Virus record (IMG/VR): IMGVR_UViG_2974638963_000001
Span: 54,538-118,537 of that record
Length of the DNA stretch: 64,000 nucleotides
From: a virus
Taxonomy: Duplodnaviria; Caudoviricetes
Direction: 5' to 3' (one strand)
Shown here: positions 1 to 9,173 of the stretch, piece after piece
Layout of the letters: each line of letters begins with the position of its first letter
Numbering within the stretch: position 1 is the stretch's first letter
Notes under the pieces: model-generated
What the model was told of the DNA's origin: nothing
Seen by the model: only the letters and a program-made list of their open reading frames with translations
Databases searched by the model: none
Position numbers and translations under genes: made by a program

Positions 1-1
1 A

Positions 2-520
2 TCTGAGTCTCTGTGTGATAGGTTTAACCGTATAGACAGAGAAGTTTTCCCCGAATACCATTGGTTGTTTGAAAAAGGATATTATACCAATAGTCACCAC
101 TTAAGTGTGGATAGAAAGGTAGCTCCTGATGTCAAATTTGATTTTGAATCTAACTTTACTAGTATTGCTAGTGGCGGCTGCATTTCTTACGTAGAACTTC
201 CTGATATGAAGAAGTTTCCTCAAGGTCTAGAATGGGTGATTGATTACGCTGCAAGCAAGGTGCACTACTTCGGTATTAATACCCCAGTGGACTCATGTGA
301 TGATTGTGGGTTCATGGGTGAGACAGTACCTACTGAAAATGGGTTCACATGCCCGTCTTGTGGTAACCATGACCCTGACAAGCTAGAAATTACTAGACGT
401 GTCTGTGGGTACTTAGGTAATCCTGGTAGTCGTCCATTTAATCCTGGTAAGCAGCACGAGGTTATGGATAGGGTTAAACATGCCGATGTTCGCAAAGGAA
501 AGGTGCAAGTAAAGAAATAA
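2..520 (+). CDS. nrdD: Anaerobic ribonucleoside-triphosphate reductase, C-terminal part (5' truncated by window)
   Basis: Frame open from position 2 (SESLCDRF); YYTNS motif, CxxC...CxxC zinc site, glycyl-radical motif RVCGYLG. Confidence 0.95.
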   Translation, partial: SESLCDRFNRIDREVFPEYHWLFEKGYYTNSHHLSVDRKVAPDVKFDFESNFTSIASGGCISYVELPDMKKFPQGLEWVIDYAASKVHYFGINTPVDSCDDCGFMGETVPTENGFTCPSCGNHDPDKLEITRRVCGYLGNPGSRPFNPGKQHEVMDRVKHADVRKGKVQVKK

Positions 521-525
521 ATTTC

Positions 526-554
526 TTGCTTAATAGCTCTCGTTTTGGTATAAT
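526..554 (+). promoter_or_regulatory. sigma70-type early promoter
   Basis: TTGCTT-17-TATAAT. Confidence 0.85.
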
Positions 555-585
555 ATCTATAAATTAACTAAAGCGAGGGTTTATT

Positions 586-939
586 ATGTTACAAGAGTCG
601 GTTAACGCAATTATAGAAGAATCACTAGGTGATAGAGTTAAAGAATTGGTAGGTATTGTTCATAATGGTATCATCCAATCTGCAAAGAAAAGGAGCTTCT
701 GTAGCACTATTCAAATTAATAATGCTACCAAACAATTTAGCCTTAATAAACAAGAACTAGTTTCATTACTACAAATTGTTTCAGCTATTTTTGAAGCAGA
801 GGGCGGAATACTAATGACTTACGCTATCTCTGGTAGTAACAATGACCTATCTATTGGGGTAGATGTATTAGTATCACCTACTGATACACTTGCATCTTAT
901 CTTGTAAAAATTTATGATTCGGAGAATGATAATGGCTGA
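586..939 (+). CDS. Hypothetical protein
   Basis: ORF after promoter, SD GAGG. Confidence 0.7.
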   Translation: MLQESVNAIIEESLGDRVKELVGIVHNGIIQSAKKRSFCSTIQINNATKQFSLNKQELVSLLQIVSAIFEAEGGILMTYAISGSNNDLSIGVDVLVSPTDTLASYLVKIYDSENDNG

Positions 940-1144
940 TTTCTGTAGGGATTGTGCAATTGATATTTTGGGTTTCGACACCAAAGATCTTGCAGGTTTA
1001 ATTACTAAAGAAGATATGTATAACGGAATCCGTGCCCACGTGATATGTGAGGGCTGTGGGTGGATTCTAGTAGACCATAATGGTGTTCGTGTTGCTCCTG
1101 ATGACAATGTTCAAGAGGTAGATAAGAATGAAGAAGATCACTAG
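932..1144 (+). CDS. Small Cys-rich (CxxC...CxxC) hypothetical protein
   Basis: MADFCRDC...CEGCG; SD GGAG at 921. Confidence 0.7.
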   Translation: MADFCRDCAIDILGFDTKDLAGLITKEDMYNGIRAHVICEGCGWILVDHNGVRVAPDDNVQEVDKNEEDH

Positions 1145-1424
1145 ATGGTGGGTAGCTAGAACAAGCCCTAATGATGTTGCCTTAGATCTAGCCACTGTGT
1201 GCACTCGTGTTATAAATAGGTCTAGAGTGGGCAATGCAGTAGCTTCCCAACTAACTCAAGTTACAGAGACTGAAATAGAGCGTGTTAAAAAATTAAATGT
1301 TAATGCTACTGATATTAACATGTTAGTCCAGATATTATGTGGGTTAGGTGTACAACTAGATTGTAGCGCAGCTAATATTCCTGATATTATCAAGCGTGAA
1401 TGGGACCTAGAGGAAGAGCAGTAA
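1128..1424 (+). CDS. Hypothetical protein
   Basis: ORF with SD GAGG, overlapping neighbours. Confidence 0.65.
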   Translation: MKKITRWWVARTSPNDVALDLATVCTRVINRSRVGNAVASQLTQVTETEIERVKKLNVNATDINMLVQILCGLGVQLDCSAANIPDIIKREWDLEEEQ

Positions 1425-1723
1425 TGAATATTATTGTACCACGCCCAGAACATATGCCACGTAGTCAGAATGATCTGCCAGATGAAGTATACTATAATAT
1501 ATGGGCAGCAGATCAGCTAGCTAGTATTGTAGGTTACATGTTATCCTATACCAACGAGTTCCATAAAGAAGGCAAGTTTGATATCACACTTACAAATACT
1601 GGAGGCTCAGAGGTACGTAGGCGCGTAACTGAGGCATTGGCTGAACAAGGCTGGGAAGCTACATATGAGCTTGAGAAGTACCAGCAACCTTTACTGACGT
1701 TACGTCCGCTTGACGACCTGTAA
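1424..1723 (+). CDS. Hypothetical protein
   Basis: TAATG coupling to upstream ORF; SD GAGG. Confidence 0.65.
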   Translation: MNIIVPRPEHMPRSQNDLPDEVYYNIWAADQLASIVGYMLSYTNEFHKEGKFDITLTNTGGSEVRRRVTEALAEQGWEATYELEKYQQPLLTLRPLDDL

Positions 1724-1790
1724 AATTTAGAAAGTGGTGGGAAATTTGGCTGTTCAAATAGGAACCACCACCCCGATTTATAAAAATTTC

Positions 1791-1819
1791 TTGCAATCGT
1801 CGAAAACTTTTGTTATAAT
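1791..1819 (+). promoter_or_regulatory. sigma70-type promoter driving the structured RNA and obp
   Basis: TTGCAA-17-TATAAT with upstream A/T tract. Confidence 0.85.
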
Positions 1820-1825
1820 ATATTC

Positions 1826-2400
1826 ATAGTTTGGAAATTCTTAGGCGTTTAAGAAAAGCGCCTAACGATTTGTAAACTCTAGATTGATTTACATTTGTCA
1901 CTCAGTATGTATCCGGTTCGTGGGGCAACCCCAACGTAGATAACGCTGATTATCTCTAACCACATAAATTCTTAACTAGTTCGACAGCTATAAAGCTGGC
2001 TTTGCTACCTGAAATCCGACCTGTTGTGCGGTGTAGTCTTATGAAGTCTCTTCGGAGAAAACCATGTTGTCATAGGGCTAGGGTAACGATAAGAACGCGG
2101 TCAATTAAACTTCTCAGAGGATGTAGGTTCGCCCTGTCTTCGGAGCACACCTGCTTAGCGGCGAATCATGAGGTGGCGTGCGAAGTTTATGTAGACTAGC
2201 AATAGCAGTCCGGCGGAGTGAGACCAAAGGCGTATAGTGAGAATAAGAAGAGAGTGTATGTGGTTAGGATGTTTTCTTTTTCGAAAGAACTCGAACAAAA
2301 AGTAAGTTGATTGTATTTGCTAGGTGAACCCTCGGGCAACTGACATAGTAACTGAACAAATCTTAGAGCATAACTGTTCCCTGGCTAAACAGGATGGACA
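1826..2400 (+). ncRNA. Putative large structured non-coding RNA or structured leader (family unknown)
   Basis: Nested long-range helices (1956-1966/2257-2267, 11 bp perfect; 2106-2113/2182-2189; 1893-1910/2343-2361), three UUCG and two GCAA-type hairpin loops, no credible ORF. Confidence 0.7.
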
Positions 2401-2438
2401 GGATAATTGTAACCTTTTAACTATAGGAGTAACTCTAC

Positions 2439-5219
2439 GTGTTCACGATTTTAGAGGGACATGAGGGGTGGACAAGAGATCAAGCAACCGGTAACTGGGT
2501 TCCGTCTAACGAGGACTTCGTGTTTGCTAAAGAATTCTCTGAACAGTTTCCAATGGGTAAACCTCACTCACTTCCAACCAAGTTTAATGTTGTGAATGAA
2601 TATGACCCAAAGACACTCCCTGAAATGATGGATTTATTAAAGTTAATTACAGCTAACCCTCAATGGATGGTTATTCGTGCAAAACCGAAGGCAGCTCGAC
2701 GTGCAATTTATAGACGTAAAGTGAATTTCGAAACTTCTAATAAATCTAATATAATCGCTATCGACGTGGATGATTTTCCACTTCCTGACGATATATCTCC
2801 GTTTGATATTGCCGCCCAAGGACGTTACGTTCTAGGCATCCTTAATTCAATTAGCGAGGAGATGTTCCCATTAGATGCAGGTTTTATTGCACATGCATCG
2901 TCTTCTGCTGGTATTAAGTCTGGTATTCGTCTGCATATGTTCTTTCAGACTAATATTCCAGTAACTCAAGGACAATTGAAATTCACGTTCTCATCTATTA
3001 ATGAATCTTCACGAGAAAAATATAATGGAGTTAACGTAATTGACTTGGCTTATTACTCAGCTGTTCAGGCACATTATTTTGCCGACCCAATTTTCAAAGC
3101 CCCATTTAAAGATCCTTTCAAACAGGAGAAAGTCGCACGTCTGAGATTTGTTTCCGGTGGAACAATAAATATGCCAGACAATGTGCCAGACTTTGAGTCT
3201 ACTAAGGGGGAGTTTAAAGAGGAATTTTACTCTTTGTTAGATCAAATTAAAGGAAAACGTTCAACATCAGATAAGGTTGAGCGAATCATTGGAGAACTGG
3301 AAGATGCAGAAGATGGTGTTTATCTTCGTATAATTCCCAAGTTATATCACAATGCACTAGAAGAGGGTATAGATCTAGCATGGCTAGAAAAGGAAATTAC
3401 TCCAGCATTGTCTCTATATGTAGCACATAAAGACAACAGAAGAACTATTCAGGAATACTTTACCAACGGTCGTAAGCAGGCTTTGAAAGCTTTTGTAAAC
3501 AACTCTAAACGAGAGATACCGTTAAACTTAAAAGGCGTTCCAATTAAGCAGTTAGAAACTAACTCTGCTGAACAGGATAGATTCTTAAAGTTAGATAAAT
3601 TACCACCCGAAGGATCAATGACATTTGTTAAGTCTAGCCTGGGAACTGGTAAAACAACAGCTATTATTAAATGGCTAGATTCTGGTATGATTGATGGGGG
3701 ATTCCTAGCAATCACAAACACTCGTGCCTTAGTTTCATCAAACGCAAAGAAATTCACGTCTGGTCAATATAACAAATCTATTGATATGTTAGACTTTAAG
3801 AGAGGTGGATTAACTAGAATGTCCTCAACGATTCACTCTATTCATAAATTCAAGGGTTTAGTTGATAAGGTTGACTTTGTATTTATAGATGAGGCAGATG
3901 CGGTAATGAATGATTTATTATTTGCACCTGTTGTTAAGAATCGCAGACAGTGTATCGAAACGTTACGTGACCTTTTATTAAATGCGAAACATGTAATTTT
4001 ATCTGATGGTGATATCAGTGCAGAAACCGTAGAAGCCTATGGTAGTCTTATAGATTTTGATAAACCAATTAATTTCTTTAATCATCATCGTCGAATGTTA
4101 CAAGGTGCTCAAGCATATGAATTCTCAGATGCAGAGTCGGTCTGGGTCGCTTTTCAAACTTCATTAGAAATGGGTGAGAAGTCAATCATAGTAACAGACT
4201 GTGGGCCTGCAGAATTAGGTGAACGTGGTATTGCTTTACGAGAAGCCACTGGTTGTATAGTTAAAGAGATCCATTCCAACTCAACCGAAGACCCTGACAT
4301 TCGCAAAATACTAGACTATACTAATGAAGAACTTATCAATCAAAATGTTCACGGATTATTATGTAGTCCATCAGTAACTAATGGAGTTGACTGGAACTAT
4401 TTTGATAACGTATTCTTATTGACTTTAACGCCTAATCAAGCCCCAAACATGCGATTCCAGGCATTACGACGAGATCGTGGAGCACAGACTTTCTATTTCT
4501 ATACAGATAAGTCAACAAGTGGTTTCGATGCAGGTTCTACTCAGTATAATGCTGAGGAAGGGTGGCTAGATGCTAGTCAACAATCTTATGCAAGACGTAG
4601 GGAAACTGAAAGTCGAAACTATGCCTCAACTTTAAGATATTATTTATTAGACCAAGGCGCTACTATTGATATCTTTACAGAAAGTTGGGGTAAAATGGAA
4701 TCGGCGGCGGATGTCTATAAAGAAGAAAGGGTTAACGCTATCTTATCATCTCTACCAGATTATACTCCTTTACGTCACAATGATGCTTATGATGCTAAAC
4801 TATTACTGATGTCTTATTATCATATTGATAAACTATCAGAAGTAACCAGAGAACTAGCGGAGTCATTTGTAGAACAGAAGCCCAACGAGAGAGCAGAGTT
4901 CTTTCATAAGGTAGTAGATTTACTGTGGCCGGCAATAAAGAAATGTACTAGCGTTTCGGTAACTCCACTAGCAGAGGCATTAAAGAAACATAAACGAGAG
5001 TTCTTCTTATTAACTGGTCAATCGGCTCAGGCTAAATATACTCGTAAATATCTAGGAATGATGGGAATTGGTAAAGATCTTGACCTTGAGAACATCAAAG
5101 ACTGGTATAGAACCTATTGTAAAATAGAGGGTATACAGTTGCATCCCGATTTTATGACAGATAAAGAGCGTTCTCTATATGAAGAGGCTAGTATGGATTT
5201 GAGGTTCGATGATGAGTAA
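2439..5219 (+). CDS. obp: Replication origin-binding protein (N-terminal AEP/PrimPol-like domain plus UL9-like SF2 helicase)
   Basis: GTG start with SD AGGAG; IDVDD and SSSAG...RLH motifs; Walker A GTGKTT, DEAD, QALRRDR; T5 synteny. Confidence 0.85.
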   Translation: MFTILEGHEGWTRDQATGNWVPSNEDFVFAKEFSEQFPMGKPHSLPTKFNVVNEYDPKTLPEMMDLLKLITANPQWMVIRAKPKAARRAIYRRKVNFETSNKSNIIAIDVDDFPLPDDISPFDIAAQGRYVLGILNSISEEMFPLDAGFIAHASSSAGIKSGIRLHMFFQTNIPVTQGQLKFTFSSINESSREKYNGVNVIDLAYYSAVQAHYFADPIFKAPFKDPFKQEKVARLRFVSGGTINMPDNVPDFESTKGEFKEEFYSLLDQIKGKRSTSDKVERIIGELEDAEDGVYLRIIPKLYHNALEEGIDLAWLEKEITPALSLYVAHKDNRRTIQEYFTNGRKQALKAFVNNSKREIPLNLKGVPIKQLETNSAEQDRFLKLDKLPPEGSMTFVKSSLGTGKTTAIIKWLDSGMIDGGFLAITNTRALVSSNAKKFTSGQYNKSIDMLDFKRGGLTRMSSTIHSIHKFKGLVDKVDFVFIDEADAVMNDLLFAPVVKNRRQCIETLRDLLLNAKHVILSDGDISAETVEAYGSLIDFDKPINFFNHHRRMLQGAQAYEFSDAESVWVAFQTSLEMGEKSIIVTDCGPAELGERGIALREATGCIVKEIHSNSTEDPDIRKILDYTNEELINQNVHGLLCSPSVTNGVDWNYFDNVFLLTLTPNQAPNMRFQALRRDRGAQTFYFYTDKSTSGFDAGSTQYNAEEGWLDASQQSYARRRETESRNYASTLRYYLLDQGATIDIFTESWGKMESAADVYKEERVNAILSSLPDYTPLRHNDAYDAKLLLMSYYHIDKLSEVTRELAESFVEQKPNERAEFFHKVVDLLWPAIKKCTSVSVTPLAEALKKHKREFFLLTGQSAQAKYTRKYLGMMGIGKDLDLENIKDWYRTYCKIEGIQLHPDFMTDKERSLYEEASMDLRFDDE

Positions 5220-5451
5220 GTGGGATTTACAGCCTAGATACAGGCAAAAACCTGCCAAAGCTAAACCTACCAAACCTCGGGGAGAGCTATGTAGAGTTCT
5301 CCCACCTCGTTTGGCAAGGACTCCAGGTATTTATGAGTTCTTGATGTCTAAGATAGATAGTGCTAGACTAGAAAGGTATCACCTCGTTATGGCGTATCGT
5401 CGTAAATGCTCCGAAATAGCTGACCTACTATTAAATGAAAAATTTGATTGA
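5209..5451 (+). CDS. Hypothetical basic protein
   Basis: ORF overlapping the obp stop, SD GAGG. Confidence 0.65.
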   Translation: MMSKWDLQPRYRQKPAKAKPTKPRGELCRVLPPRLARTPGIYEFLMSKIDSARLERYHLVMAYRRKCSEIADLLLNEKFD

Positions 5452-5476
5452 TTAATAGCTAAATTTGATTTATAAT
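5448..5476 (+). promoter_or_regulatory. sigma70-type promoter
   Basis: TTGATT-17-TATAAT. Confidence 0.75.
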
Positions 5477-5508
5477 AGTTTCATAAATTTGGAAAAGAGG
5501 AATTAGAT

Positions 5509-6228
5509 ATGGCAGGCGGAAAACGCAGACGTGTAGCTGCCCATGACATTCCAGATGCTTTATTTATAGAAGCAAAAGAATGGCTTGAAAAGGGTGGTAC
5601 AAAGAAAGGTGCATGTGACATCTTAAGCAAAAGTGGAGTCAATGTAGGCTCTAATAAAAAGATGGAAGAGCTAATCCAAGAATGGGAAGACCGTAAAGTT
5701 TACGATGCAGAAATGAGAAAGCGTAAACGTGGTACGAGCATAGAAGGAGTTGAAGCCGCTTCCATTATTGAAGATTACTTTGCTGGTATTAGTATCGCAG
5801 ATATTGCAGACCAAAATCATCGTTCTCAGATGAAGATTAAATCATTCCTAGAAGAGAATGGTGCTTTGTTACGTGCTACTGAACCAGAAGATCCTAATCG
5901 TCCTTGGGAACTTTTCCCACCATTGCTAGATGAAAGTACATTTAGTGATGAATATAAGATTGGGGATATTGTTTGGGTAGCTGGTCGTCAGTGTTTTGGC
6001 GAAGTAACCCATAAATTATCTGATGATGTATATCGTGTGTGGCTTTTAAGCGGCAAACAGATGTATATTCCAGTTGAAGTATGGAACTTAGCCAACGTAG
6101 AACGCTTCAGAGAGTTTGGTGTAGATCCTAAGCGATTTGGAGAACGTTGGGAACGTGATGATGTGATAGTGACCTTGAATGAGGCACTTAAGAAAGCTAA
6201 ATTAAATGCGGCTAAGGATGCAAAATAA
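5509..6228 (+). CDS. D2: T5 D2-like protein
   Basis: GGTKKGACDIL motif, size and synteny with T5 D2. Confidence 0.75.
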   Translation: MAGGKRRRVAAHDIPDALFIEAKEWLEKGGTKKGACDILSKSGVNVGSNKKMEELIQEWEDRKVYDAEMRKRKRGTSIEGVEAASIIEDYFAGISIADIADQNHRSQMKIKSFLEENGALLRATEPEDPNRPWELFPPLLDESTFSDEYKIGDIVWVAGRQCFGEVTHKLSDDVYRVWLLSGKQMYIPVEVWNLANVERFREFGVDPKRFGERWERDDVIVTLNEALKKAKLNAAKDAK

Positions 6229-6482
6229 TGGTAAAAATGACTTTAGCAGAGATCTTTTCTAGGTCTCTATTGACCTCTCGTGTAGAATTTGCACGAAAAG
6301 AAGATAACTTGGAAGAAGGGCTTGAAAAGTTTTATGCTATTTCAAGTAATGATCCAGAAATGAAAAACGTTATAGAATTAAATACTATCAATACTGCAAC
6401 AGGTGAAACCAAAGTAGAGCATAAATCTCTAGGGGAATTCATCCAACGGTATGGTATGCAGAGTCGTTGGTACTTGATCTAA
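6228..6482 (+). CDS. Hypothetical protein
   Basis: TAATG-coupled ORF. Confidence 0.65.
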   Translation: MVKMTLAEIFSRSLLTSRVEFARKEDNLEEGLEKFYAISSNDPEMKNVIELNTINTATGETKVEHKSLGEFIQRYGMQSRWYLI

Positions 6483-6490
6483 AAATTCAC

Positions 6491-6519
6491 TTGCTTAGTA
6501 TTAGCAAAATTGTTATAAT
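6491..6519 (+). promoter_or_regulatory. sigma70-type promoter
   Basis: TTGCTT-17-TATAAT. Confidence 0.85.
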
Positions 6520-6558
6520 ATTTATATAAATTAATCAACAACAAAAGGAAATAAATTT

Positions 6559-6957
6559 ATGTCAGAACTAGATAAAGTTGCACTTGCCGATCGTTACGTA
6601 GAAGTCATTTCTGCTTACCCAGAAGACGAGCGTCCATCAATTACAACTGAAGTTGTTAAGCAAGTAGCAGAAGAATTTGGTATCCCTGCCAACTCAGCAC
6701 GTCTGCATATCAGTCGTGACCCACGTGGCGTTTATATTAAGAAAGATTCTGCCAAGAAATCAACATCTGCTGATGGTGAAAAGAAAACTGGTGGAACTCG
6801 CACATCTAAAGCCGCAGCACAAGCTGAGCTAAAAGCAGCTCTGATGGATGCAGGTGCACCAGAAGATAAAGTTGCCGAAGGCGAAGAAATCATCGAGAAA
6901 ATGACAGGTAAAGCTGCTCTGTTCTTAGCTGAATTAATTCGTTCAATCACTAAGTAA
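6559..6957 (+). CDS. D3: T5 D3-like DNA-binding protein
   Basis: Size, GVYIKK / GGTRTSKA / KMTGKAA motifs, synteny. Confidence 0.75.
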   Translation: MSELDKVALADRYVEVISAYPEDERPSITTEVVKQVAEEFGIPANSARLHISRDPRGVYIKKDSAKKSTSADGEKKTGGTRTSKAAAQAELKAALMDAGAPEDKVAEGEEIIEKMTGKAALFLAELIRSITK

Positions 6958-6969
6958 TAAGGAGCTGTT

Positions 6970-7299
6970 ATGACTAAGCGTTTTAGTGCAAACTTAAGTA
7001 CACCTGTTAAAAAGGTCGAAGTTATTGCAGCGTGTGACGAGTATGGTGAAGTGTTTATTCACTATCGCAAACAATCACGTAAGCCTGGTGAACCTTGGTC
7101 AACACAACTCCAAGGCACTATGGATTTCTCAGATAAGTATCTAGCTAAACGTTTTGAACAAGAACAACCAGCACCAGCAGGTGAAGGTGAAATCTTAGTG
7201 TTTAGCAGAACCAACGATCGCTTCCGCTATCTGCCAGTGGATACAATCTTTAAGATTGAGCATCTTGGCACAGTAGTTAACAAGGCTCGTGTCCTCTAA
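6970..7299 (+). CDS. Conserved T5-like hypothetical protein
   Basis: SD AGGAG, synteny. Confidence 0.7.
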   Translation: MTKRFSANLSTPVKKVEVIAACDEYGEVFIHYRKQSRKPGEPWSTQLQGTMDFSDKYLAKRFEQEQPAPAGEGEILVFSRTNDRFRYLPVDTIFKIEHLGTVVNKARVL

Positions 7300-7633
7300 T
7301 ATAGTTGAAGACGAAGGAATTGTTCGTCAGGAAAACGAAATGTATCCTGACGAATGCTCTGTTCCTTTGTGGGTTAAAAATGGGGAAGAAGTCCATTTCA
7401 CAATCTCCGAATTTCGAGGCAACCTATATATGGGTATACGTCTATGGCTCCAAGATGCCACTGACGAGAGTTGGTTCCCAACACGTGCTGGATTTTCTAT
7501 CCCTTTTAACATCGACACATCTGCTAGATTATTCAAGGCACTTGCTCGAACACTGAGTAAGGCAGAAGTCCTTGATGAAGTCATACAGCATACACAAAAC
7601 TGCGACACGCTTTCCGCGTTAAATAAATTATAA
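7289..7633 (+). CDS. PC4/p15-like ssDNA-binding protein
   Basis: TISEFRGNLYMGIR...WFPTRAGFSI matches the PC4-fold signature. Confidence 0.75.
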   Translation: MSSNIVEDEGIVRQENEMYPDECSVPLWVKNGEEVHFTISEFRGNLYMGIRLWLQDATDESWFPTRAGFSIPFNIDTSARLFKALARTLSKAEVLDEVIQHTQNCDTLSALNKL

Positions 7634-7660
7634 CCGTGCTTTTCAGTGCGGTTTTTATTT
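7632..7660 (+). terminator. Rho-independent terminator
   Basis: ACCGTGC-loop-GTGCGGT followed by T tract. Confidence 0.6.
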
Positions 7661-7662
7661 AC

Positions 7663-7691
7663 TTGCATTTTGCTTAAATTTTTGATATAAT
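7663..7691 (+). promoter_or_regulatory. sigma70-type promoter
   Basis: TTGCAT-17-TATAAT. Confidence 0.85.
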
Positions 7692-7731
7692 ATTTATATT
7701 GAATAGGTAATATATCAAAGGGGATTAATAA

Positions 7732-9173
<1,442 letters not shown>

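What the first reader, a model, noticed from the sequence alone, without database searches (positions are those of the whole stretch)
1826..2400. Unannotated ~550-nt highly structured RNA transcribed directly upstream of the PrimPol-helicase (obp) gene
Seen: a strong promoter (1791-1819) is followed by ~610 nt without a credible ORF, richer in GC than typical intergenic DNA here. Nested long-range helices: CTAACCACATA 1956-1966 with TATGTGGTTAG 2257-2267; ATTTGT/TCAGT/ATGT 1893-1910 with ACAT/ACTGA/ACAAAT 2343-2361; TAAACTTC 2106-2113 with GAAGTTTA 2182-2189; GTAGGT with ACCTGC. Local hairpins have stable loops: cUUCGg at 2051 and 2139, UUCG at 2280, GCAA at 1925 and 2199, plus stems at 1841-1865 and 1938-1955. 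It lacks tRNA, tmRNA, RNase P and group I core signatures. Inference: a large multi-domain ncRNA in the size class of ROOL/GOLLD/OLE-type RNAs. It is co-transcribed with a primase-helicase, so it may be an RNA partner of Obp, a replication-origin or primer RNA, or a translational control element.
Basis: partly seen in the sequence, partly recalled or inferred. Interest (0 to 1): 0.88.

Follow-up and report, generated by a model that had tools for sequence, protein, structure and literature searches.

The report
Structured RNA upstream of obp
The 610 gene-free bases in front of this T5-like phage's replication-initiator gene encode a large folded RNA that is kept, in shape far more than in sequence, across T5-like phages of enterobacteria, matches no catalogued RNA family and has no known function, though it is probably tied to that gene or to starting DNA replication.

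Summary
A near-consensus promoter (1791-1819) is followed by about 610 nt with no credible ORF, up to obp (2439-5219). No Rfam family or tRNA matches.

The anatomy is a 21-bp 5' hairpin (1828-1878), a roughly 48-bp long-range rod (1951-2009 with 2215-2271), a 200-nt branched head, an unconstrained linker (2272-2361), and a conserved 3' segment with the Shine-Dalgarno site.

Against Providencia phage PSTCR5, the hairpin and core are 99-100% identical. obp third codon positions are 79%, and one hairpin tip and the linker are 70-77%.

Nearly all 47 T5-like loci have a 500-900 nt ORF-free gap here. In the T5 clade, 58 of 120 predicted pairs change on both sides and 91% of cells stay paired. A GCU-UAGC-GGC hairpin sits 204-224 nt from the rod base in six sequence-unrelated clades, including this one.

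Function is open. My leading reading (0.35) is an RNA coupled to Obp-dependent replication initiation. A cis-acting processing or regulatory leader follows closely (0.30).

This scan has reported the same RNA family on other T5-like genomes. I found no paper describing it.

The parts
1791..1819 (+). Sigma-70 promoter with an extended -10. The RNA start is inferred at about 1826.
   Evidence: 10 of 12 matches, TG present. Identical in PSTCR5. The same TTGCnn-N17-TATAAT element sits about 497 nt upstream of obp in Markadamsvirinae and 619 nt upstream here.
1828..1878 (+). 5'-terminal hairpin of 21 bp, -22 kcal/mol.
   Evidence: 100% identical to PSTCR5. A comparable 5' hairpin occurs in T5, L010, L031, L032 and PM135.
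1879..1950 (+). 5' domain. It holds the motif UAUCCGGUUCGUG (1910-1922), the hairpin GGGG-CAA-CCCC (1922-1932) and a small hairpin at 1938-1955.
   Evidence: 98.6% identical to PSTCR5. Similar motifs in T5 (AUACGGAACAG) and PM135 (GUACGGUUCGU) at the equivalent place. The pairing partner is unresolved.
1951..2009 (+). 5' strand of the long-range rod, four stacked helices.
   Evidence: Pairs with 2215-2271. The one double change against PSTCR5 (1977 with 2245) turns U-A plus A.A into tandem G.A/A.G within the helix (my reading).
2010..2214 (+). Branched head. Hairpin domain 2018-2102 (UUCG tip at 2051-2054), domain 2106-2189, hairpin 2191-2214.
   Evidence: 99% identical to PSTCR5 outside 2116-2148.
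2116..2148 (+). Hypervariable hairpin tip inside the head.
   Evidence: 69.7% identity to PSTCR5, with no indels.
2148..2175 (+). Family hairpin. Helix 2148-2152 with 2171-2175 encloses G2153-C2162, with loop UAGC closed by a U.G pair.
   Evidence: Covarying flanking helix across clades. A covariance model built from T5-clade sequences only finds this site as the best non-training hit: PSTCR5 E 0.011-0.021, window E 0.1-0.19. It is the only hit in the whole genome. The A2147-to-C change in PSTCR5 extends the helix.
2215..2271 (+). 3' strand of the rod.
   Evidence: 99.2% identical to PSTCR5 over 2149-2271.
2272..2361 (+). Unconstrained linker with one conserved 15-nt island at 2326-2340.
   Evidence: 76.7% identity with several indels. 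The T5 clade has no equivalent stretch.
2362..2438 (+). Conserved 3' segment. CUGUUCC box and hairpin 2374-2401, Shine-Dalgarno AGGAG at 2425-2429.
   Evidence: 94.8% identity. The hairpin appears. It aligns with the (A/G)UUGUUCU box and hairpin of the T5 clade.
2439..5219 (+). obp, 926 aa, with an N-terminal primase-polymerase-like part and a UL9-type helicase.
   Evidence: Pfam PF02399, E 6.8e-07. 913 phage records carry a homologue.

Best explanation
What it is (confidence about 0.9): the Priunavirus version of an undescribed structured RNA found upstream of obp in T5-like phages of enterobacteria. The host polymerase makes it from a strong early promoter. It begins with a stabilising 5' hairpin. 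It then folds into a roughly 320-nt rod-and-head core that carries an invariant GCU-UAGC-GGC hairpin. With no terminator, transcription runs on into obp.

How it most likely works (inferred; the confidence given is for this part): the RNA acts in replication initiation together with Obp, rather than merely tuning obp translation. In this model, transcription from the strong promoter opens the DNA at this locus. Obp, translated from the same transcript, recognises the folded RNA, with the invariant hairpin as the likeliest contact. The primase-helicase is thereby loaded in cis, next to its own gene, either on an R-loop or pre-primer as with ColE1 RNA II, or as an RNA-protein complex. This would make the locus the phage's primary origin.

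Shown: the promoter, the fold, its conservation and covariation, and its linkage to obp. Inferred: Obp binding, origin function, and any priming.
For: A real RNA under selection:
- Core identity to PSTCR5 is 99.2-99.4% and the 5' hairpin is 100%. obp third codon positions are 79.4%, and the tip and linker are 70-77%.
- T5 clade (31 sequences): 91.1% of cells paired, against 81.8% when shuffled and about 42% when slid. 58 pairs change on both sides, against 35 and 21-29. Covariation score 0.313, against 0.161 and 0.06-0.09.
- The + strand folds better than its complement, -134.9 against -106.8 kcal/mol.
- The layout recurs where sequence does not. Rod spans are 319-353 nt and the hairpin lies 204-224 nt from the rod base in the window, T5, L010, L031, L032 and PM135. 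A T5-clade profile HMM finds nothing in the window.

A link to Obp or replication beyond cis control:
- The RNA lies directly upstream of obp in nearly all 47 loci, although the spacer to obp ranges from about 65 to about 290 nt.
- PM135 has a 12-of-12 consensus promoter between the RNA and obp, as well as one in front of the RNA. L051 is similar. obp therefore need not be read through the RNA, yet the RNA is kept.
- T5 against L010: leader nt 1-105 are 100% identical and the rod plus head 40-65%. The diverged block runs on through obp codons 1-600, and all 29 fixed Obp differences between the two leader types lie in residues 36-419.
- The RNA lies about 4 kb from the genome-wide cumulative GC-skew minimum, where gene direction switches.
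- The RNA is G-rich, with skew +0.15 to +0.25.
- From memory, unchecked: electron microscopy by Bourguignon et al. (1976) placed the first T5 origin near the middle of the genome, where this locus lies.
Against: - No AT-rich unwinding element and no iterons in 1600-2600.
- Obp has its own primase-polymerase-like domain, so an RNA primer is not obviously needed.
- A very stable RNA fold works against R-loop formation.
- The co-divergence of the RNA core with the Obp N-terminal part amounts to one evolutionary event between adjacent DNA. Plain linkage explains it.
- The GC-skew minimum is equally explained by the switch in gene orientation.
- No data on expression, binding or origin mapping could be obtained.
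- In this window and in T5, the RNA's promoter is the only recognisable promoter for obp. A purely cis role therefore stays fully possible here.
Confidence: 0.35

Rival explanations
1. It is a cis-acting leader. The rod is an RNase III-type processing stalk, like rRNA precursor stems, T7 R sites or the lambda N leader. Cleavage removes the 5' hairpin and head and leaves an obp mRNA that starts near the conserved 3' hairpin. This sets Obp amount and timing. A protein, possibly Obp itself, bound to the invariant hairpin could provide feedback.
For: - Same strand, no terminator, and the only recognisable promoter for obp in this window and in T5.
- Rod segments of 21-31 bp are long enough for RNase III.
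- Rod and head sequence evolves about as fast as synonymous sites while pairing is kept, as in processing stalks.
- A conserved hairpin and Shine-Dalgarno segment lie at 2362-2438.
- In the T5 clade, a hairpin that contains the start codon covaries with the GUG-to-AUG change: C-G in 23 sequences, U-A in 3 (pair 514/528).
- Long structured leaders are usually cis-regulatory (general knowledge).
Against: - Second consensus promoters downstream of the RNA in PM135 and L051 bypass it.
- A 200-nt branched head and an invariant loop are more than a stalk needs.
- The linker between core and start site is unconstrained here, and spacer length varies.
- No conserved segment pairs with the start region: z is about 0 in 8 of 10 leaders.
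Confidence: 0.3
2. It is a trans-acting stand-alone RNA whose job is unrelated to Obp, for example a decoy against a host defence or a host-takeover RNA. It would lie next to obp only because a strong early promoter is there.
For: - It has its own consensus promoter and a stabilising 5' hairpin.
- Head alleles are swapped between near-identical T5-clade phages, and the tip is hypervariable here. Both resemble arms-race loci.
- The genome reportedly holds other promoter-driven ncRNA candidates (unchecked notes).
Against: - Strict adjacency to obp in every clade examined.
- No complementary target for the invariant loop in the window.
- No paralogue of the hairpin elsewhere in the genome.
Confidence: 0.15
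3. It is a DNA-level element. The helices would form in single-stranded DNA, as single-strand initiation hairpins recognised by the primase domain or a UL9-type origin hairpin. The RNA would be incidental.
For: - From memory: origin-specific primases such as RSF1010 RepB' recognise DNA hairpins, and UL9 binds the oriS* hairpin.
- The 8-nt invariant motif could be a protein-binding site.
Against: - G.U pairs are abundant in the covarying helices, and the complementary strand folds much worse.
- A conserved promoter is placed exactly at the 5' end.
- A 320-nt nested fold is hard to form in duplex DNA.
Confidence: 0.05

Closest known systems
ColE1-type plasmid pre-primer RNA II
   Same: A promoter-driven, folded RNA of about 500-600 nt lies next to replication functions. 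Its fold, not its coding capacity, is what is kept. Allelic variation of loops between relatives is plausible in both.
   Different: No antisense RNA I-like gene was found: minus-strand promoter-like sites are at chance level. There is no sequence or Rfam relation. The partner here is a primase-helicase rather than RNase H and Pol I. Hybrid formation is untested.
RNase III processing stalks (rRNA precursor stems, T7 early R sites, lambda N leader)
   Same: Long-range pairing of distant segments makes a stem of more than 20 bp around an internal RNA. The stem sequence drifts while pairing is kept. The element lies in an early phage transcript upstream of a gene.
   Different: Cleavage is untested. 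The enclosed RNA is not a known functional RNA. An invariant hairpin lies inside the head.
Large 'ornate' RNAs of phages and bacteria (ROOL, GOLLD, OLE, raiA, HEARO)
   Same: The size class, the multi-branched fold, occurrence in phages, and unknown biochemical role.
   Different: No match to any of their covariance models in 9 loci. Very few conserved nucleotides. It is fixed upstream of one particular gene rather than near tRNA clusters.
Structured leaders of replication and RNA-metabolism genes (IncB/IncI repZ leader, R1 CopT, rne 5' UTR, T4 gene 32 and 43 operators)
   Same: It is the 5' untranslated region of a replication-initiator gene. The conserved hairpin loop contains a YUNR-type sequence (UUAG), as in loops that make fast RNA-RNA contacts (my reading of the motif).
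   Different: It is 5-10 times larger. No conserved partner for the loop was found. No leader peptide and no antisense gene were found.

Membership tests
T5-like obp-upstream structured RNA (undescribed; defined by this analysis and earlier notes of this scan) | Lies between a near-consensus sigma-70 promoter and obp, on the same strand, in an ORF-free gap. | tested here: met
T5-like obp-upstream structured RNA | A long hairpin at the 5' end of the transcript. | tested here: met
   1828-1878.
T5-like obp-upstream structured RNA | A long-range rod spanning about 320-350 nt that encloses a branched head. | tested here: met
   1951-2271, span 321 nt. The other clades span 319-353 nt.
T5-like obp-upstream structured RNA | A GCU-UAGC-GGC hairpin inside a covarying helix, about 204-224 nt from the rod base. 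| tested here: met
   2148-2175, 204 nt from the rod base. The covariance model built without this clade gives E 0.011-0.19 and these are the best non-training hits.
T5-like obp-upstream structured RNA | Compensatory base changes within the window's own clade. | tested here: inconclusive
   Only two sequences exist, the window and PSTCR5. The core is almost invariant. Covariation is shown only for the T5 clade.
ROOL, GOLLD, OLE, HEARO, raiA | A match to the family's covariance model. | tested here: not met
   No hit at E <= 1 in window 1-8000. No hit in any leader at E <= 10 across 8 related loci.
Group I or II intron, RNase P RNA, tmRNA, 6S RNA, tRNA | A match to the Rfam model or to ARAGORN. 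| tested here: not met
ColE1 RNA II-type pre-primer | An antisense regulator gene, a persistent RNA-DNA hybrid, and RNase H processing at an origin. | not testable with these tools
   Only minus-strand promoter-like sites at chance level. Hybrid formation and cleavage need experiments.
RNase III processing stalk | A double-stranded stem of at least about 20 bp made by long-range pairing, cleaved by RNase III. | tested here: inconclusive
   The stem is present: about 21 bp at 1951-1973 with 2250-2271, plus three more helices. Cleavage is not testable here.
Protein-coding gene (ORF 2002-2199) | A conserved frame with excess third-position change, a start signal, and homologues. | tested here: not met
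   Substitutions fall 3/6/3 by codon position. No Pfam hit. TTG start. Nearly all related leaders lack an ORF of 70 aa or more.

The most novel reading that the evidence does not exclude
The RNA is an obligatory RNA component of origin firing in a classical double-stranded-DNA phage. Nascent Obp would bind the folded RNA of its own transcript through the invariant UAGC hairpin. The primase-helicase would then be loaded in cis on the transcription-opened DNA. The rod-head alleles would act as specificity determinants that keep co-infecting T5-like phages from cross-activating each other's origins. This would be an RNA-guided or RNA-licensed mode of replication initiation not described for phages.
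Probability: 0.2. Interest if true: 0.9.

Novelty: new variant of a known kind. Interest (0 to 1): 0.68.

Why it matters
T5 has been a model phage for over sixty years. To my knowledge (from memory, not checked against papers here), its replication origin and the role of its "origin-binding" primase-helicase have never been defined at sequence level.

A promoter-driven structured RNA sits directly in front of that gene across the enterobacterial T5-like clades, and more than 900 sequenced phage records carry the gene. It is absent from Rfam and from the papers I could search. It gives a concrete, mutable handle on how these phages start or control replication.

Even if it proves to be "only" a processing or regulatory leader, it would be among the largest cis-acting RNA structures known in a phage. 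It is also a clean natural example of a fold kept while the sequence turns over at about the synonymous rate.

Tried and rejected
- **Rfam.** cmscan in E-value mode on window 1-8000 and on 8 related loci found nothing in any leader.
- **ARAGORN.** No tRNA or tmRNA.
- **DNA similarity.** blastn and a T5-clade profile HMM against the window leader found only PSTCR5 and the promoter.
- **Metagenome scan** for closer relatives of this Obp found none.
- **Coding reading of ORF 2002-2199** is rejected.
- **Iterons or an AT-rich unwinding element.** None.
- **A partner for the invariant loop.** Candidates exist in single clades, such as CGCUGA at 1944-1949 and UUGCUAGG at 2317-2324, but they are changed in PSTCR5 or placed differently in other clades. 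No trans target in the window and no second copy in the genome.
- **A segment that pairs with the obp start region.** Not better than shuffles in 8 of 10 leaders. Only T5-type leaders reach z = -3.1.
- **Pairing of the 5' motif with 3' segments.** Several plausible partners, none consistent across clades.
- **Vibrio-phage leaders (JSF10, L051).** They have rods of similar span, but their xUAGCGG strings do not form the family hairpin, so I do not claim the hairpin for them.
- **Covariance model R1** is too narrow to recover PM135, L031 or L032.
- **Q-INS-i structural alignment** is not installed.
- **Literature.** Four literature searches found no description of this RNA. The T5 origin-mapping paper is not held.
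- **Single-sequence shuffles.** Only weakly significant.

Full report
**Setting.** The window is the right half of a 118.5-kb T5-like phage genome with direct terminal repeats. Its only close relative in the collections is Providencia phage PSTCR5 (Priunavirus, Demerecviridae), about 94% identical over this region. The flagged stretch lies between a small upstream ORF that ends at 1723 and a 926-aa gene at 2439-5219. Pfam matches that gene to Herpes_ori_bp, and 913 phage records carry a homologue, usually named "replication origin binding protein".

**Observation.** The promoter at 1791-1819 is real by consensus: 10 of 12 matches, with the TG extension. There is no credible ORF up to obp. The longest is a 65-aa, TTG-started frame. 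Differences from PSTCR5 inside it fall 3/6/3 on the three codon positions. G+C is raised. No terminator-like site lies before obp. Rfam and ARAGORN find nothing. The + strand folds at z = -1.8 to -2.2 and the - strand at z = -0.6. On its own this is modest evidence.

**Anatomy in the window.**
- A 21-bp hairpin starts two bases after the inferred RNA start (1828-1878).
- A 5' domain follows (1879-1950).
- A rod of four stacked long-range helices pairs 1951-2009 with 2215-2271, about 48 bp in all.
- A branched head (2010-2214) has three arms.
- A linker runs from 2272 to 2361.
- A last segment (2362-2438) holds a hairpin at 2374-2401 and the Shine-Dalgarno site.

**Selection seen against PSTCR5.**
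- The 5' hairpin is 100% identical.
- The core is 99.2-99.4% identical outside one hairpin tip.
- obp codon positions 1 and 2 are 98.0% identical; third positions are 79.4%.
- The tip (2116-2148) is 69.7% identical and the linker 76.7%.

The core is thus held as tightly as protein-coding first and second positions. The tip and linker drift freely.
- The outermost helix (1893-1910 with 2343-2361) has its 3' strand rewritten in PSTCR5 without any compensating change.
- The UUCG loops near 2139 and 2280 are not kept.

**Family-wide conservation.** Using an alignment of four Obp proteins, I fetched 47 related loci from IMG/VR, plus T5, Klebsiella phage Roth37 and Vibrio phage JSF10 from GenBank. 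Nearly all have a gap of 500-900 nt with no + strand ORF of 70 aa or more upstream of obp. Most enterobacterial members have a TTGCnn-N17-TATAAT promoter at a fixed distance. The leaders fall into 13 clusters with no detectable sequence similarity between them. A profile HMM of the T5 clade finds nothing in the window.

Within the T5 clade (31 distinct leaders), the RNAalifold structure has 120 pairs. On the count of structure pairs:

| Measure | Observed | Shuffled | Slid |
|---|---|---|---|
| Cells paired | 91.1% | 81.8% | about 42% |
| Pairs changed on both sides | 58 | 35 | 21-29 |
| Covariation score | 0.313 | 0.161 | 0.06-0.09 |

The complementary strand folds worse, -106.8 against -134.9 kcal/mol. 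Together with many G.U pairs, this points to an RNA read in the obp direction.

**Same layout, different sequence.** Minimum-energy folds show the same plan in the window, T5, L010, L031, L032 and Proteus phage PM135 (L009):
- a 5' hairpin;
- a rod spanning 319-353 nt;
- one hairpin, GCU-UAGC-GGC, enclosed by a helix whose sequence differs in every clade, 204-224 nt from the rod's 5' base.

A covariance model of that hairpin, built only from T5-clade sequences, picks the equivalent site in PSTCR5 (E 0.011-0.021) and in the window (E 0.1-0.19). These are the best hits outside its training set. It is the only hit in the phage genome. The PSTCR5 change at 2147 lengthens this helix. I do not extend the hairpin claim to Vibrio-phage leaders. 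They have rods of similar span but lack the hairpin.

**Turnover of sequence under a kept fold.** Between T5 and L010:
- The first 105 nt of the leader are 100% identical.
- The rod and head are 40-65% identical.
- The last 74 nt are 86.5% identical.
- obp third positions are 62-73% identical for codons 1-600 and 87.5% beyond.

The rod and head thus change at about the synonymous rate or faster while pairing and the hairpin stay. The left border of the diverged block is the base of the rod. The block continues into the N-terminal two thirds of Obp, and all 29 fixed differences between the two leader types lie in residues 36-419. This is a single event between neighbouring DNA. I treat it as a lead, not evidence of co-adaptation.

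**What it does.** Nothing here shows function, so I weigh circumstantial evidence.

Against simple translational control:
- No segment that pairs with the obp start region is conserved.
- The linker between core and start site is unconstrained.
- PM135 has a perfect consensus promoter between the RNA and obp, as well as one in front of the RNA. L051 is similar. The RNA is kept even where obp can be transcribed without it.

For a tie to Obp or replication:
- Strict adjacency to obp in all clades.
- The co-diverged block described above.
- The position about 4 kb from the genome's cumulative GC-skew minimum and strand switch.
- The strong promoter.

Against an origin:
- No iterons and no AT-rich element.
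- Obp has its own primase-like domain.

For a processing stalk:
- The rod is long enough for RNase III.
- It drifts in sequence like rRNA stalks do.
- A conserved hairpin precedes the start site.

I therefore rank the readings as follows:

| Reading | Confidence |
|---|---|
| Replication-coupled RNA | 0.35 |
| Cis-acting processing or regulatory leader | 0.30 |
| Unrelated trans-acting RNA | 0.15 |
| DNA-level element | 0.05 |

**Known relatives and novelty.** No Rfam family matches in 9 loci. Four full-text searches and two papers on structured-RNA discovery gave no description of this RNA. It resembles ColE1 RNA II, RNase III stalks, ornate phage RNAs and replication-gene leaders in different respects, and it is a member of none.

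Earlier notes of this scan report the same kind of RNA upstream of obp in at least eight other T5-like genomes, with the same open question. My analysis agrees with them and adds:
- the Priunavirus member;
- the constant rod-to-hairpin geometry;
- the constraint map against PSTCR5;
- the bypass promoters in PM135 and L051;
- the negative start-pairing test.

**Limits.**
- The window's own clade has only two sequences, so its helices rest on conservation and on analogy with the T5 clade.
- Cross-clade homology rests on layout, one hairpin and position, not on a full structural alignment.
- Expression data could not be obtained.

Noticed in passing
L009:2435-2464 (Proteus phage PM135) and L051:2334-2361: A second near-consensus sigma-70 promoter (12 of 12 matches in PM135) lies between the structured RNA and obp, as well as the one in front of the RNA. 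In these clades obp can be transcribed without the RNA.
   Followed up: partly
L005/L029 against L010, leader and obp (L029:2004-5263): T5-clade phages carry two 'alleles' of the rod-head module, 40-65% identical, between flanks that are 100% and 86.5% identical. The diverged block extends through obp codons 1-600, and all 29 fixed Obp differences lie in residues 36-419. The last 320 codons are nearly identical.
   Followed up: partly
window 2116-2148 and 2272-2361: Two stretches inside the otherwise almost invariant leader are 70-77% identical to PSTCR5. That is slightly below the 79% of obp third codon positions. They could be neutral spacers or sites under diversifying selection.
   Followed up: partly
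whole genome, about 52 kb (about 2.5 kb before the window start): The cumulative GC-skew minimum coincides with the switch from minus-strand to plus-strand genes, about 4 kb upstream of the RNA.
   Followed up: partly
window 1734-1772: A GTGGTGG...CCACCAC inverted repeat lies just after the stop codon of the upstream ORF and before the promoter. It may end the upstream operon. T5 has an annotated terminator at the equivalent place. The simple terminator scan did not call it.
   Followed up: no
L001 / PSTCR5 record MW057857.1, 107524-109434 and 1-864: The GenBank record is cut inside obp, so the gene is split across the record ends and is not annotated there.
   Followed up: partly
L018, L033, L041 (about 100 nt upstream of the usual leader start): Three T5-clade phages have the promoter about 100 nt further upstream and a different 5' hairpin sequence. 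This suggests an insertion or a duplicated promoter-leader unit.
   Followed up: no
L005 leader nt 342-361 with the obp start region (T5-type leaders only): The 3' strand of the inner rod is strongly complementary to the obp start region (-18 kcal/mol, z = -3.1). Other clades do not show this.
   Followed up: partly
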